Made by a program: the position numbers and the translations under genes. A DNA stretch of 64,000 nt from the human T2T-CHM13v2.0 reference genome, Homo sapiens. The DNA lies in assembly GCF_009914755.1 (NCBI RefSeq), contig NC_060947.1; one strand, written 5' to 3'. The notes beneath the pieces are model-generated. The model searched no databases. It saw only the letters and a program-made list of their open reading frames with translations, and was not told the DNA's origin. Shown one piece after another: positions 10,701-14,572 of this stretch (positions are counted from its first letter, which is position 1; every line of letters starts with the position of its first letter).

Positions 10701-13700
10701 CTCCGTGAAGAATTTGATCAAGGTCTGGATGTAGTGCTGGATGACAATCAGAATGTGCATGATGTGGCTGCACTCCTCAAGGAGTTTTTCCGTGACATGA
10801 AGGATTCTCTGCTGCCAGATGATCTGTACATGTCATTCCTCCTGACAGCAAGTGAGTCTTCTGACCTCCCTAGTAGGGCAAGGAAAGGAAATATTACTGG
10901 GGTCTAGGGGGTTCTAGGGACAGAGCTCAGGCTGGAGGACTTTGAAGAACTAAGGCAAAATGACCATAAGAAGATTTTAAAAACCTCTCCAGAATATATA
11001 CAATTATTATTTGTCAATTAAAAATAAAATTTTAATAAAAAACTTATTTGGGTTACTTTCTTTGTATTTCTAAATGTTCCATTATAAGTCTGTTGCTTGG
11101 AAATTTCTCTAGAGCTTCTTGAAGATGTGTGTGCCCTCTCAGGTCAAAAAAAAAAAAAACCACCCAGGTTCTGTAGAGGAGGTCTGGTTTTTATGGGGGC
11201 ACTTCTTGCTTTCAGAGTTCCTGAGCTCAAATGCTTTGGAAATGAGCAAAGGCAAGATGCCTGGGTACTTTCTCCATAACTGCCAGCAAGTTTCAAGCAG
11301 AATCTCACCTCCCTTGGTATCAGTCTGCAGCCAAGACTATCCCCCTGAGACAGCCCCTGTTTTCCTTCTTCTAGCTTTAAAGCCCCAGGATCAGCTTTCT
11401 GCCCTGCAGTTGCTGGTCTACCTGATGCCACCCTGCCACAGTGATACCCTGGAGCGTCTGCTGAAGGCCCTGCATAAAATCACTGAGAACTGCGAGGACT
11501 CAATTGGCATTGATGGACAGTTGGTAAAAAGATCTTGGAAAGAGTAGTGAAAACTGTAGTAGGGGACATATGTGGGAGTATATCAGCAAGAGGGTGGATG
11601 GAGAGGAGAGAGAGAAACAAGAATAAAAAGAGACATATTCATTTGTACAACTCCCAGTACTACCTCAGCGTCAATCACTTTCTGCTTTCCTTTGCCTAGG
11701 TCCCAGGCAACCGTATGACTTCCACTAACTTGGCCTTGGTGTTTGGATCTGCTCTCCTGAAAAAAGGAAAGTTTGGCAAGAGAGAGTCCAGGAAAACAAA
11801 GCTGGGGATTGATCACTATGTTGCTTCTGTCAATGTGGTCCGTGCCATGATTGATAACTGGGATGTCCTCTTCCAGGTAGGTGCAAGTTTTGGATGCACT
11901 TGTTTTACACATCCATCTCCTGTTCACAAGGCAAGGCACAGTTGTACCTGCATCTTTGAGGGTAGCCAAAACAGGCAGCCACAAGATCGTCCAGTCTAGA
12001 AATTCCTCCCACATTAGCTGGCCCTGGTACCTTTAGTCCTAGGTACCTGAAAGAGATGAGTATAAATGAAAAGGTGCTGTGTAATGATGGCTAATGTTGC
12101 TAATTCTACCCTCAGGTGCCTCCCCATATTCAGAGGCAGGTTGCTAAGCGCGTGTGGAAGTCCAGCCCGGAAGCACTTGATTTTATCAGACGCAGGAACT
12201 TGAGGAAGATCCAGTGAGTGTTTTTTGGGTTTGTTTATGCTTAGCCTGAAGTACCTCCTCCTATGGGGTTTTCCAACTCCAGACTATCTTTATATTAAGT
12301 AACGCAAGTACACAAACTGACTTTTTCAAAATCCTTCCCATTCAGGAGTGCACGCATAAAGATGGAAGAGGATGCACTACTTTCTGATCCAGTGGAAACC
12401 TCTGCTGAAGCCCGGGCTGCTGTCCTTGCTCAAAGCAAGCCTTCTGATGAAGGTCAGTTCCCTGCTGGAGGTCAGGCCCTTGCTGAAGGTCAGTCCCTTG
12501 TTGAAGGTCAGGCCCTTTTTGAAGGCCAGGTCGTTGCTGAAGATGAGCCCCTTGAGGAAGATGAGTCCTCTGAGGAAGATGAAGAGCTAGTATTTGAATA
12601 TCTTAATCAAGGAGTAGTCTTTGGGGAAGCTCAAGGTCTAGAAATCCCAAATAACTTTGAGATTCAGGGCCCACATCTTGAAGGAATACCAGAGCTTGAT
12701 GAGGAAGATGATGATGATGATAATGATACTTTAAATTTTGATGATCTTCCTCCCCTTGGAGATATTCTAGAACCAGATAATGAAATTCCAGAACTCATTG
12801 AGATCCCAGACTTTGAAGAAATTCCATATTTTGATATGGTCCCAGACCTTGAAGGAGCCCCAGATGTGCAAGAAATCCTGAACCCTGGAGAAAACTCAAA
12901 CCATGACCTAGAAGAAGGAGCAGATTTTGAAGACCACCAAAATCTTAACCTTGCAGAAGCTCCCTATCTTGATGTAATCCCAAACAATGAAATCCCAGAC
13001 CACGCAGATCCTTCAGATAATGATGAAATCCAAGATTCTGAAGAAGATCCCAGTCTTGAAGATGTCCCAGCTGTTGATGAAGTTCCAAATGATGAAGCCT
13101 CAAATACTGAAGAAATCCCAGACTATGAAGCCCCAGAGGTAAATGGGATTTCAGACTCTGAGGAAGACCTTGATTTTGAAGAAGTCTCAGCTCTTTATGT
13201 GGTTCCAAGCCCTGAAGAAGCCCCTGGTGGACATGAAATCCCAAATCATGAAGAATCTCCAGAGGTTAGTGGACTCTCAGACCCTGAAGAAGATCCCAGT
13301 CTTGAAGAGGTCTCAGATTTTGATGGAATCCCAAAATGATGAGGAAGCCTCAGACACTGAAGAAATTCCAGACCATGAAGAAGCTCCAGAGACCAATGGA
13401 ATTGCAGGCCCTGAAGAGGTCCCAGCTCTCCATGTAGTCACAGGCCCTGAAAATGTCTCTGATTTTGATGAAATGCAAGACCATGAAGAATCCTCAGATG
13501 TGAGTGGAGTCCCAAACACCGAAGAAGCCTCAGATATTGAAGAAATTCCGGGACGTGAAGAAGCCTCTGATGTTAGTGGAAACCAAGACTCTGAAGAAAG
13601 CCCTAGTCTTGAAGAAGATTCAGTTCTCTATGTGGCTCCAAAACCTAAGGATGCCCAGATTTACAACAAAGTTCAAGATTATCAGAAAGACCAAGCCAGT

Positions 13701-14572
13701 GCATTTGAAGAAGAAGAAGTTACCACTATGGCTCCAGAAACTGATGATGTCTCCATTCTCAATACAATTCCAGACCCTCCACAAGACCTGGCTGTCAATC
13801 TTGAAGAAGTCATGGATGTGGAAGAAGTCCCAATGCCTAAAGATTTAAACTCTAAAGAGGTTCAGAATCCAAAGGCAATTCAGTTTCATAAAGATGCAGA
13901 TGTTGCATTCCCTGTAGATACCACTCTCCTTAAAAACAAGTCTCAGCCTGGCCAAGTCATGGACTACAAGTCCTCACCAGAGGTGTTGAAGGGCAACACC
14001 TGCTTTCTGTCTTCCATGCAGTGCTGTAAGCTTTCAGCTCTAGCTTTGTTACTCATTTGCTTGGTAAAATTAGTCAGGTTACTTGTAGGGTGGTGGTGGT
14101 TATTAGGAGGTCGCCCTCTTACCTGTCTCCCTGGTGGTATTGTCCATTCCCTCTGAGCGCAGGGTATCTGTCTTACTCTTTCTCTTTCCTAACTCAGCTC
14201 TTTTCCCAGTTCCCACAGTGGTCCTAGATTCAGAGATCTGTGTTCTGCTGTCAGGCTGTAGTATTCTTATATGTCAAATGGGGATAATCATCCCTGTCCT
14301 ACCTTCTTGCCTCATACTGTATTTGAAACTCAAAATTAGGTCTTAGTGCCTTGGGTGCTGCGCAAAGTATAAAGTCTAGAAACATAAGGAGTTAACATTG
14401 TTACTATTTTTCAGGTTCCTCTGAGGAGCCAGCTGTGCCTTCCGGCACTGCCCGTTCCCATGACGATGAGGAAGGAGCGGGTAACCCTCCCATTCCGGAG
14501 CAAGACCGCCCATTGCTCCGTGTGCCCCGGGAGAAGGAGGCCAAAACTGGCGTCAGCTACTTCTTTCCTTAG
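7453..14572 (+). CDS. ARHGAP36: ARHGAP36 spliced CDS, 547 aa: join(7453..7705,8952..9017,9521..9756,10002..10194,10413..10468,10701..10851,11375..11523,11700..11876,12116..12213,12346..12452,14415..14572)
   Basis: All introns are GT-AG with compatible phases; exon lengths sum to 1644 nt. Translation [19 protein letters not shown]...RhoGAP-like domain...[10 protein letters not shown] is recognised as ARHGAP36. Confidence 0.97.
7570..8870. promoter_or_regulatory. CpG island / probable internal alternative promoter of ARHGAP36
   Basis: Dense CpG and high GC (e.g. gcggtgcgggcgcgggggcggcggc, GC boxes) against an AT-rich background; strong donor GGG|GTAAGC at 8296. Confidence 0.8.
8952..9017 (+). 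CDS. ARHGAP36: ARHGAP36 coding exon 2 ([22 protein letters not shown])
   Basis: Acceptor tctttctgtag; donor G|GTGAGG; phase 1-1. Confidence 0.93.
9521..9756 (+). CDS. ARHGAP36: ARHGAP36 coding exon 3, arginine-rich region
   Basis: Acceptor ctccccag; encodes AVSHKTFG...[15 protein letters not shown]...FTRRGRR; donor CGA|GTGAGT. Confidence 0.95.
10002..10194 (+). CDS. ARHGAP36: ARHGAP36 coding exon 4 (GAVSVDS...IEKH)
   Basis: Acceptor tttctccacag; start of RhoGAP fold [16 protein letters not shown]; donor G|GTAAGG. Confidence 0.95.
10413..10468 (+). CDS. ARHGAP36: ARHGAP36 coding exon 5 ([19 protein letters not shown])
   Basis: Acceptor ctttcag; donor CAG|GTAAAT; GIFT motif where RhoGAPs have GIFR. 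Confidence 0.95.
10701..10851 (+). CDS. ARHGAP36: ARHGAP36 coding exon 6 (LREEFD...[15 protein letters not shown]...)
   Basis: Typical RhoGAP [12 protein letters not shown] motif; AG/GT boundaries. Confidence 0.95.
11375..11523 (+). CDS. ARHGAP36: ARHGAP36 coding exon 7 ([20 protein letters not shown]...DGQL)
   Basis: Acceptor cttctag; donor TTG|GTAAAA; RhoGAP helices. Confidence 0.94.
11700..11876 (+). CDS. ARHGAP36: ARHGAP36 coding exon 8 ([16 protein letters not shown]...WDVLFQ)
   Basis: RhoGAP NxMxxxNLAxVFG motif; donor CAG|GTAGGT. Confidence 0.95.
12116..12213 (+). CDS. ARHGAP36: ARHGAP36 coding exon 9 (VPPHIQRQ...NLRKI)
   Basis: Acceptor ccctcag; donor CA|GTGAGT (phase 2). Confidence 0.93.
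12346..12452 (+). CDS. ARHGAP36: ARHGAP36 coding exon 10, penultimate ([13 protein letters not shown]...KPSDE)
   Basis: Acceptor ccattcag; donor AAG|GTCAGT at 12453 (phase 1). Confidence 0.93.
12453..13339 (+). CDS. ARHGAP36: Putative in-frame read-through or retained-intron extension of ARHGAP36 encoding an acidic repeat tail (790-aa isoform)
   Basis: No stop for 884 nt past the donor; D/E/P-rich protein-like repeats. Expression cannot be shown from sequence. Confidence 0.5.
13337..14156 (+). pseudogene. Frameshifted continuation of the acidic repeat ORF (+1 frame)
   Basis: Same repeat units ([14 protein letters not shown]) continue in the +1 frame right after CCAAAATGA. Confidence 0.6.
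14415..14572 (+). CDS. ARHGAP36: ARHGAP36 last coding exon (GSSEEPAVP...SYFFP*)
   Basis: Acceptor tttttcag; TAG at 14570-14572. Confidence 0.94.

What the first reader, a model, noticed from the sequence alone, without database searches (positions are those of the whole stretch)
12447..12585. Ladder of duplicated, in-phase 5' splice sites every 18 nt
Seen: an 18-bp tandem repeat (6-aa unit EGQxLx) copies the exon donor itself: AAG|GTCAGT (12453, canonical), GAG|GTCAGG (12471), AAG|GTCAGT (12489, identical 9-mer to the canonical site), AAG|GTCAGG (12507), AAG|GCCAGG (12525), decaying to AAG|ATGAG (12543). All are phase 1, so each could splice in frame to the last exon and add 6, 12 or 18 aa. 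Inference: competing donors could act as a length dial, or weaken splicing and promote retention. The repeat may be the seed from which the whole acidic tract expanded.
Basis: partly seen in the sequence, partly recalled or inferred. Interest (0 to 1): 0.7.

Follow-up and report, generated by a model that had tools for sequence, protein, structure and literature searches.

The report
Repeated splice donors in ARHGAP36
The splice donor at the end of ARHGAP36 exon 11 is copied every 18 bases because it lies inside an ancient protein-coding repeat that opens an optional acidic tail found in other mammals and disrupted by a frameshift in this human assembly; the extra copies are plausible but mostly unused splice sites.

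Summary
An 18-nt tandem repeat (about 12431-12592) repeats the annotated exon-11 donor. AAG|GTCAGT is at 12453 and, as the identical 9-mer, at 12489. GAG|GTCAGG is at 12471 and AAG|GTCAGG at 12507. A weak GC site follows at 12525. The site at 12543 is not a donor. All are in phase 1.

The repeat is not recent. It is the head of a coding minisatellite (E-G-Q-x-L-x) conserved unit by unit across placental mammals. It opens a 1.57-kb acidic tract, the human "intron 11", which many mammalian gene models include as coding sequence. The codons GAA-GGT-CAG spell the donor, so each unit carries a copy.

Of 132 orthologue protein clusters, 118 splice at the first rung and 12 read through. Only 2 use a later rung: +12 aa in a transcript-sized unnamed record, and +6 aa in a hare model.

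In this human assembly the tract has a single 1-nt frameshift near 13331-13334.

No human use of rungs 2-4 could be tested here. The "length dial" idea is only weakly supported. The feature is best read as a by-product of repeat-encoded protein, with latent in-frame donors.

The parts
12346..12452 (+). ARHGAP36 exon 11 (constitutive); its last 18 nt are already a decayed repeat unit
   Evidence: Hub annotation; unit table; sequence
12431..12592 (+). 18-nt (6-aa) tandem array of nine units: [54 protein letters not shown]
   Evidence: TRF; unit table; lag-18 self-match 0.71
12453..12461 (+). Rung 1: the annotated donor AAG|GTCAGT
   Evidence: rough PWM score 8.44 bits; junction at this place in 118 of 132 orthologue clusters
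12471..12479 (+). Rung 2: GAG|GTCAGG, in frame, +6 aa
   Evidence: 6.47 bits; the next rung after the first donor is used in hare model P0124
12489..12497 (+). Rung 3: AAG|GTCAGT, same 9-mer as rung 1, +12 aa
   Evidence: 8.44 bits; the equivalent rung is used in unnamed record P0053
12507..12515 (+). Rung 4: AAG|GTCAGG, +18 aa
   Evidence: 7.35 bits; no orthologue model uses it
12525..12533 (+). Rung 5: AAG|GCCAGG, a GC site of poor predicted strength
   Evidence: 0.72 bits
12453..14025 (+). Optional acidic tract. It is annotated as intron in human and is coding in long ARHGAP36 models of other mammals. It is 1573 nt (3n+1).
13331..13334 (+). A-run where the human frame shifts by one base relative to orthologues (..DGVPNDEE..)
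   Evidence: tblastn frame switch at 13333/13335; sequence and the two translations
13337..13339 (+). TGA that ends the human read-through frame, 295 codons after exon 11
12842..12990 (+). Homologue of the ~47-aa cassette exon used in mouse and many other mammals (DPEGAPDVQ...). The acceptor-like tcccag|AC is present. The part that carries the donor in other species is missing in human.
14026..14034 (+). Far donor GCT|GTAAGC. In other mammals it joins the tract to the last exon (...SMKFC|SSEEP).
14028..14156 (+). Read-through hydrophobic tail [28 protein letters not shown]..., with its stop at 14154-14156; conserved in cow and dog models
14415..14572 (+). Last coding exon and the shared acceptor (GSSEEPAVP...)
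   Evidence: Hub annotation

Best explanation
The ladder is the first part of an old protein-coding minisatellite, not a set of independently evolved splice sites. The unit is 18 nt (6 aa, Glu-Gly-Gln-x-Leu-x). It starts in the last 18 nt of constitutive exon 11 and runs into an optional 1.57-kb acidic tract. Placental mammals either include this tract in a long ARHGAP36 isoform or remove it.

The codons GAA-GGT-CAG spell AAG|GTCAG, so every unit carries a copy of the donor. The Gln codon forces C at +3, which keeps all copies only moderately strong.

The first copy is the working donor. It skips the tract by joining either to the last exon (the human form) or to internal cassette acceptors (the mouse form). 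Rungs 2-4 are latent in-frame donors of similar intrinsic strength, and they are used now and then in some mammals.

Why the first rung wins is inferred, not shown. The most likely reason is exon definition: across the 107-nt exon, the nearest adequate donor downstream of the acceptor is the one chosen.

In this human assembly the tract carries a 1-nt frameshift. The ladder therefore lies in an intron, and at most it contributes minor +6, +12 or +18 aa isoforms or modulates use of the first donor.
For: Shown:
- Sequence and repeat.
- Unit-by-unit orthology of the ladder peptide in 12 read-through orthologues, where every indel is a whole 6-aa unit (5, 6 or 7 units).
- Long ARHGAP36 models (888-1103 aa) from elephant, whale, ruminants, camel, dog, fox, bat and marmot cover 100% of the human read-through frame at 51-75% identity.
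- The human tract is colinear with them in one frame to 13333 and in the next frame to 14027 or 14153.
- There are 0 stops in 295 and 231 codons of the two open pieces, against 9 and 56, and 5 and 26, in the off frames.
- 118 of 132 orthologue clusters place a junction exactly at the first rung, 12 read through, and 2 use a later rung: with two regex errors corrected by eye.
- Rungs 1 to 4 score 8.44, 6.47, 8.44 and 7.35 bits. This is within the 3.56-10.07 range of the gene's 10 annotated donors in the window. Rungs 1 and 3 tie for the highest score and all four rank in the top seven GT sites between 12346 and 14414.
- Leporid models lack exactly one unit (SKPFDE), and the exon still ends at a rung.

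Inferred: exon definition as the reason for first-rung choice (established knowledge, recalled).
Against: - Rung 3 has the same 9-mer and almost the same context as rung 1, so nothing in the sequence explains exclusive use of rung 1. Predicted RNA accessibility does not favour rung 1.
- The orthologue evidence is protein models, many of them predictions. The database is clustered at 90% identity, so isoforms differing by 6-18 aa are mostly hidden. The 2 of 132 is a floor.
- The donor scores rest on a recalled, approximate weight matrix and a recalled U1 5' end.
- No RNA data for human and no orthologous DNA were available. I could test neither actual use nor synonymous constraint on the GGT codons.
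Confidence: 0.7

Rival explanations
1. Length dial. The rungs are functional alternative donors whose regulated use makes ARHGAP36 isoforms with 6, 12 or 18 extra residues between the exon-11 peptide and the C-terminal exon.
For: - All rungs are in frame and keep the Gly junction codon.
- Rung 3 equals rung 1 in score.
- A transcript-sized record (P0053: a 569-aa complete protein on a 2752-nt contig) has an exact 12-aa insertion, GQFPAGDQTLAE, at the junction relative to its closest named relative.
- Hare isoform X2 carries +6 aa (GQFPTG).
Against: - Only 2 of the 120 spliced orthologue clusters use a later rung.
- No human RefSeq transcript in the hub's table does.
- The papers read in passages describe only N-terminal isoforms.
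- There is no evidence of regulation or of a functional difference.
Confidence: 0.1
2. U1-binding cluster as a switch. Several weak U1 sites together set the balance between splicing at the near end of the tract (short form) and reading on to the far donor at 14026 (long form). Alternatively they act as decoys that damp the first donor.
For: - Four GT sites with partial U1 complementarity lie within 54 nt.
- The gene does have two donor regions 1.57 kb apart that give short and long forms in other mammals.
- The far donor is weak on its exon side (4.31 bits).
Against: - No binding or splicing data exist here.
- The sites are fully explained by the conserved peptide.
- The 18-nt spacing is probably too tight for neighbouring U1 particles to bind together (recalled).
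- In this human assembly the long form is frameshifted, so a switch would have nothing to switch.
Confidence: 0.15
3. Pure relic in human. After the tract lost its frame, the ladder has no function at all, and its resemblance to donors has no consequence.
For: A single frameshift and a stop at 13337. No catarrhine long model appeared in two 'longer' searches. The one primate long-range model, Saguinus P0015, skips the ladder and ends in another frame.
Against: This overlaps with the best explanation rather than excluding it. The human ladder peptide is still nearly identical to the cat's. Either the loss is recent or constraint persists. Latent donors of this strength are rarely completely silent (inference).
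Confidence: 0.05

Closest known systems
Tandem alternative splice sites (NAGNAG acceptors, GYNGYN donors); recalled from the literature, not read here
   Same: Closely spaced splice sites at one exon end that can give in-frame protein variants differing by a few residues.
   Different: The spacing is 18 nt, not 3-4 nt. There are four to five copies, made by a coding minisatellite. Use of the extra sites in human is unproven.
Alternative 5' splice site inside a long coding exon (optional coding segment; exitron-like)
   Same: A coding tract is kept or removed depending on whether an internal donor is used. Orthologue models show both outcomes.
   Different: The acceptor belongs to the next exon, so this is alternative donor choice (12453 against 14026) and not a true exitron. 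In this human assembly the tract is 3n+1 nt long and frameshifted.
Tandem repeats that influence splicing (spl-TRs; PMC10078293, passages read)
   Same: A tandem repeat lies directly at a splice site.
   Different: In that catalogue the repeats act through length or bound proteins. Here the repeat unit itself contains the donor. ARHGAP36 is not mentioned in that paper's main text (0 occurrences); its supplements were not opened.
Pseudo-5' splice sites or U1 decoys near real donors (recalled)
   Same: Donor-like sequences close to a used donor.
   Different: No evidence here that they bind U1 or change splicing. They are explained by conserved codons.

Membership tests
Coding minisatellite (in-frame tandem repeat) | Head-to-tail copies detected by a repeat finder, with a unit length that is a multiple of 3 | tested here: met
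   TRF gives period 18 with score 109-130; lag-18 self-match is 0.71
Coding minisatellite (in-frame tandem repeat) | The frame is open and the peptide is conserved in orthologues | tested here: met
   0 stops in 295 codons; 12 orthologue models read through the ladder with unit-by-unit conservation
Coding minisatellite (in-frame tandem repeat) | Copy number changes by whole units between species | tested here: met
   5, 6 or 7 units, and all indels are multiples of 6 aa; leporid models lack one unit
Tandem alternative 5' splice sites | Two or more GT donors at one exon end, in frame with each other | tested here: met
   GT at 12453, 12471, 12489 and 12507, in 18-nt steps
Tandem alternative 5' splice sites | More than one of the sites is used in transcripts of this organism | not testable with these tools
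   No human RNA data were available. The hub's table lists only 12452 as the exon-11 end. In other mammals 2 of 132 clusters use a later rung.
Exitron | Both splice sites lie inside one annotated coding exon and the length is a multiple of 3 | tested here: not met
   The acceptor at 14415 is that of the next exon. A separate donor at 14026 ends the long exon in other mammals. The human tract is 1573 nt = 3n+1.
U1 decoy / splicing-silencer cluster | Binding of U1 snRNP, and an effect on use of the real donor | not testable with these tools
   Only complementarity could be computed

The most novel reading that the evidence does not exclude
The exon-11 end of ARHGAP36 sits inside a minisatellite. 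As a result the exon boundary can move by whole 6-aa units, both in evolution (unit loss in leporids, 5-7 units among mammals) and in splicing (rung 2 in a hare model, rung 3 in a bat-like transcript record). Human cells would also make unannotated +6, +12 or +18 aa isoforms, and the ladder would be the switch point between a short form and an ancient long acidic form that is frameshifted in this human assembly.
Probability: 0.2. Interest if true: 0.55.

Novelty: new member of a known kind. Interest (0 to 1): 0.4.

Why it matters
[quoted passage not shown] It is studied in medulloblastoma, neuroblastoma, heterotopic ossification and the orange coat colour of cats. The papers I read in passages treat its C-terminal domain as fixed and discuss only N-terminal isoforms.

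This analysis shows that the C-terminal exon junction lies in a repeat that carries spare in-frame donors. It also shows that the human "intron 11" is, in many mammals' gene models, an optional acidic coding tract of more than 500 residues with two alternative ends. It carries one base-pair frameshift in this human assembly.

That has three consequences:
- Mouse, cat, dog or cattle experiments may involve isoforms that human lacks.
- Variants in this "intron" need to be interpreted with that history in mind.
- It gives a clean natural case for studying how the splicing machinery chooses among identical donors.

On its own the ladder is a modest curiosity.

Tried and rejected
- Pfam scan of both open pieces of the tract: 0 families.
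- RNA folding to see whether structure exposes rung 1 and hides the others. Mean unpaired probability was 0.11 for rung 1 against 0.03-0.44 for the others, and it changed with the context length. This gives no explanation.
- Own-genome searches for a second copy of the ladder or tract, or for a retrocopy that would record an old junction. Only the locus itself matched, plus GAP-domain exons of paralogues. One search ran with a stricter first look, so weak matches may be missing.
- Literature. 'ARHGAP36' + 'isoform' gave 78 papers, of which 25 were listed. I read passages of 5 of them. 'ARHGAP36' + 'intron retention' gave 0 papers. 'ARHGAP36' + 'alternative splicing' + 'C-terminal' gave 9 papers, seen as a listing only. 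A general search for repeats carrying splice donors gave no close precedent in the 15 listed.
- Nothing found describes the ladder, the long form or the frameshift. Supplements were not opened.
- Rejected idea: that the ladder is a recent duplication of the donor. Unit orthology across placental mammals contradicts it.

Full report
**1. The observation**

- AAG|GTCAGT with GT at 12453, the annotated end of exon 11.
- GAG|GTCAGG at 12471.
- AAG|GTCAGT at 12489, the same 9-mer as the annotated site.
- AAG|GTCAGG at 12507.
- AAG|GCCAGG at 12525.
- AAG|ATGAG at 12543.

Tandem Repeats Finder reports a period-18 array at 12448-12554 (5.9 copies, 77% matches, score 109). It also gives period-36 and period-54 readings of the same array, and a second period-18 array at 12539-12582.

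The motif RAGGTCAG occurs 9 times in the window on both strands, against 3.6 expected. Four of the nine are spaced exactly 18 nt apart at 12450-12511.

The coding parts in the hub's table add up to 1486 nt through 12452. Base 12452 is therefore the first base of a codon, and all rungs share phase 1. Every rung has G at -1, so the junction codon with the last exon (G|GT) stays Gly.

Cut in register, the array has nine units starting at 12431, inside the constitutive exon: [54 protein letters not shown]. Two qualifications apply: 12543 is not a donor, and 12525 is a poor GC site.

**2. What lies around it**

Reading through the annotated donor gives an open frame of 295 codons that ends at the TGA at 13337-13339. 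It is 33% Asp+Glu and has no Lys or Arg. A second frame, open from 13143 to 14156, continues the same kind of sequence and ends in a hydrophobic stretch. The annotated intron (12453-14414) is 1962 nt.

The two open pieces have 0 stops in 295 and 231 codons. The off frames of the same stretches have 9 and 56, and 5 and 26. Pfam finds no family in either piece.

**3. Relatives**

A protein search with the read-through frame, restricted to longer proteins, returned 49 ARHGAP36 clusters. Long models of 888-1103 aa come from elephant, pygmy sperm whale, oryx, deer, camel, cattle, dog, argali, a Myotis bat, marmot and fox. Most of them cover 100% of the human read-through frame at 51-75% identity.

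tblastn of four of them against the window shows the human tract colinear in one frame up to 13333. It then continues in the next frame:
- to 14027 for the whale model, which splices ...SMKFC|SSEEP into the last exon;
- to 14153 for cattle (14144 for dog), which read on into [26 protein letters not shown]... and stop where the human frame stops.

There is one frame switch. Orthologues read ..DGVPNDEE.. where human has CCAAAATGATGAGG, consistent with one extra base in the A-run at 13331-13334. This agrees with 12453-14025 being 1573 nt (3n+1).

The far donor is T|GTAAGC at 14026.

So the human "intron 11" is homologous to an optional coding tract with two alternative ends. In this assembly its frame is broken at a single point. 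Neither "longer" search returned a long model from a catarrhine primate. The only primate long-range model (Saguinus, P0015) skips the ladder and other parts and ends in another frame. That is weak evidence that the loss is older than human. Neither the ladder nor the tract has a second copy or retrocopy in the window's own genome.

**4. Which donor is used**

A second search, restricted to exon 11 plus the ladder and to proteins of similar length, added 83 clusters, making 132 in all. These are clusters, not species: several species contribute more than one isoform. None was dropped.

I classified them by what follows the exon-11 peptide. Two regex misassignments were corrected by eye (P0020 is a cassette form, P0111 a short form), which left the totals unchanged.

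| Class | Clusters |
|---|---|
| First rung joined to the last exon (the human form) | 71 |
| First rung joined to an acceptor inside the tract | 47 |
| Read through the ladder | 12 |
| A later rung used | 2 |

Most of the 47 internal-acceptor forms use a ~47-aa cassette, DPEGAPDVQ...DEIP. This is part of the mouse protein named isoform 1 by its source (P0039) and maps to human 12842-12990. In all 118 first-rung cases the residue after ...DE is D, G, E, A or V. All of these have codons starting with G, as expected from the split codon.

The two later-rung cases are these:
- P0053 is an unnamed record: a complete 569-aa protein on a 2752-nt contig, so it must derive from spliced RNA. It is 86% identical to the Pipistrellus kuhlii X2 model. 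At the junction it differs by one exact 12-aa insertion, GQFPAGDQTLAE, between ...PFDE and GSSEE. That is the equivalent of human rung 3.
- P0124 is hare isoform X2, which reads ...AAVLAQ|GQFPTG|GSSEEP. The rabbit model joins ...AAVLAQ directly to the cassette. Both leporid models lack the unit SKPFDE, so the hare model uses the rung after the first.

The protein database is clustered at 90% identity, so isoforms differing by 6-18 residues are mostly invisible. Two is a floor.

**5. Age of the ladder**

I aligned the ladder peptides of human and the 12 read-through models, plus the two later-rung proteins P0053 and P0124. The units are orthologous one to one. For example, human reads [42 protein letters not shown], and cat reads [42 protein letters not shown].

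Indels within the ladder are whole 6-aa units:
- 5 units in human, two whales, cat, dog and naked mole-rat;
- 6 units in elephant, ruminants and camel;
- 7 units in marmot.

The ladder, including its "decay" into EDEPLE and EDESSE, therefore predates the placental radiation.

The nucleotide self-match at lags 18 and 36 stays raised over the whole tract (0.43 and 0.44, against a mean of 0.258 with sd 0.05). In the non-coding rest of the intron it is 0.287 and 0.265.

**6. Strength of the rungs**

I used a rough weight matrix whose frequencies I recalled, so the absolute values are only indicative.

| Site | Score (bits) |
|---|---|
| Rung 1 (12453) | 8.44 |
| Rung 2 (12471) | 6.47 |
| Rung 3 (12489) | 8.44 |
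| Rung 4 (12507) | 7.35 |
| GC site (12525) | 0.72 |
| 12543 | 0.83 |
| Far donor (14026) | 4.31 |

The gene's ten annotated donors in the window range from 3.56 to 10.07 bits. Rungs 1 and 3 tie for the highest score and all four rank in the top seven GT sites between 12346 and 14414. All rungs have C at +3, which is forced by the Gln codon. Predicted RNA accessibility does not single out rung 1.

**7. Explanation**

The donor copies are a by-product of conserved Glu-Gly-Gln codons in a coding repeat that straddles the exon end. The first copy is the ancient working donor that removes the optional tract. The others are latent in-frame donors and are occasionally used.

Preference for the first rung is most simply explained by exon definition across the 107-nt exon. 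This is an inference from established knowledge and is not tested here.

Two rivals remain open at lower odds: a regulated length dial, and a U1-site cluster that balances the short and long forms. Deciding between them needs human junction counts and orthologous DNA, neither of which these tools offer.

**8. Novelty**

The papers I could read in passages (PMC8128262; the cat preprint 10.1101/2024.11.21.624608; PMC11223830) describe five N-terminal isoforms and a single C-terminal domain. Searches for ARHGAP36 with 'intron retention' gave 0 papers. ARHGAP36 with 'alternative splicing' and 'C-terminal' gave 9 papers, seen as a listing only. Neither surfaced the ladder, the long form or the frameshift.

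The long forms do exist as predicted entries in public protein databases. So the ladder is a new member of a known kind: alternative donors created by a coding repeat. It sits in a locus whose C-terminal isoform history did not turn up in print.

Noticed in passing
window 12453-14156: The annotated human intron 11 is homologous to an optional acidic coding tract of more than 500 residues that is present in long ARHGAP36 models of many mammals. In this assembly its frame is broken once, by what looks like one extra A at 13331-13334. Read-through from exon 11 would give a protein of about 790 aa ending at the TGA at 13337.
   Followed up: yes
window 14028-14156: Past the far donor, the frame continues into a hydrophobic tail ([19 protein letters not shown], mean Kyte-Doolittle 2.54). 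Its stop is at the same aligned position as in cattle and dog models. This may be an alternative, membrane-anchor-like C-terminus of the long form.
   Followed up: partly
window 12842-12990: This is the homologue of the ~47-aa cassette exon that is part of the mouse protein named isoform 1 by its source (P0039) and of many other mammals' models. The acceptor-like tcccag|AC is present in human. The segment that carries the donor in other species (..EASDTDEIP|G) is missing in human (..NNE-----IPDHAD).
   Followed up: partly
window 12443-12445: Human exon 11 encodes KPSDE. Nearly all of the 132 orthologue clusters, including gibbon, macaque and colobus, have F at that position (KPFDE). This looks like a substitution on the human lineage, 3 codons before the donor.
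   Followed up: no
P0124 and P0131 (leporid models), equivalent to window 12434-12451: Hare and rabbit models lack exactly one repeat unit (SKPFDE) at the end of exon 11, yet the exon still ends at a rung. Gain or loss of a unit therefore moves the exon boundary.
   Followed up: partly
P0050 (grey seal isoform X1), equivalent to window 13917-14025: This model joins the first rung to an acceptor just before DTTLLKNKS. It keeps only the last ~40 residues of the tract before the far donor, which is a third way of using the tract.
   Followed up: no
P0016 (Cricetulus griseus, 996 aa): This hamster model carries about 20 tandem copies of a 24-aa unit (NDEPQDSEKVFNLEKIPSGDEVS) in the tract. It is either a lineage-specific expansion of a higher-order repeat or an assembly or annotation artefact.
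   Followed up: no
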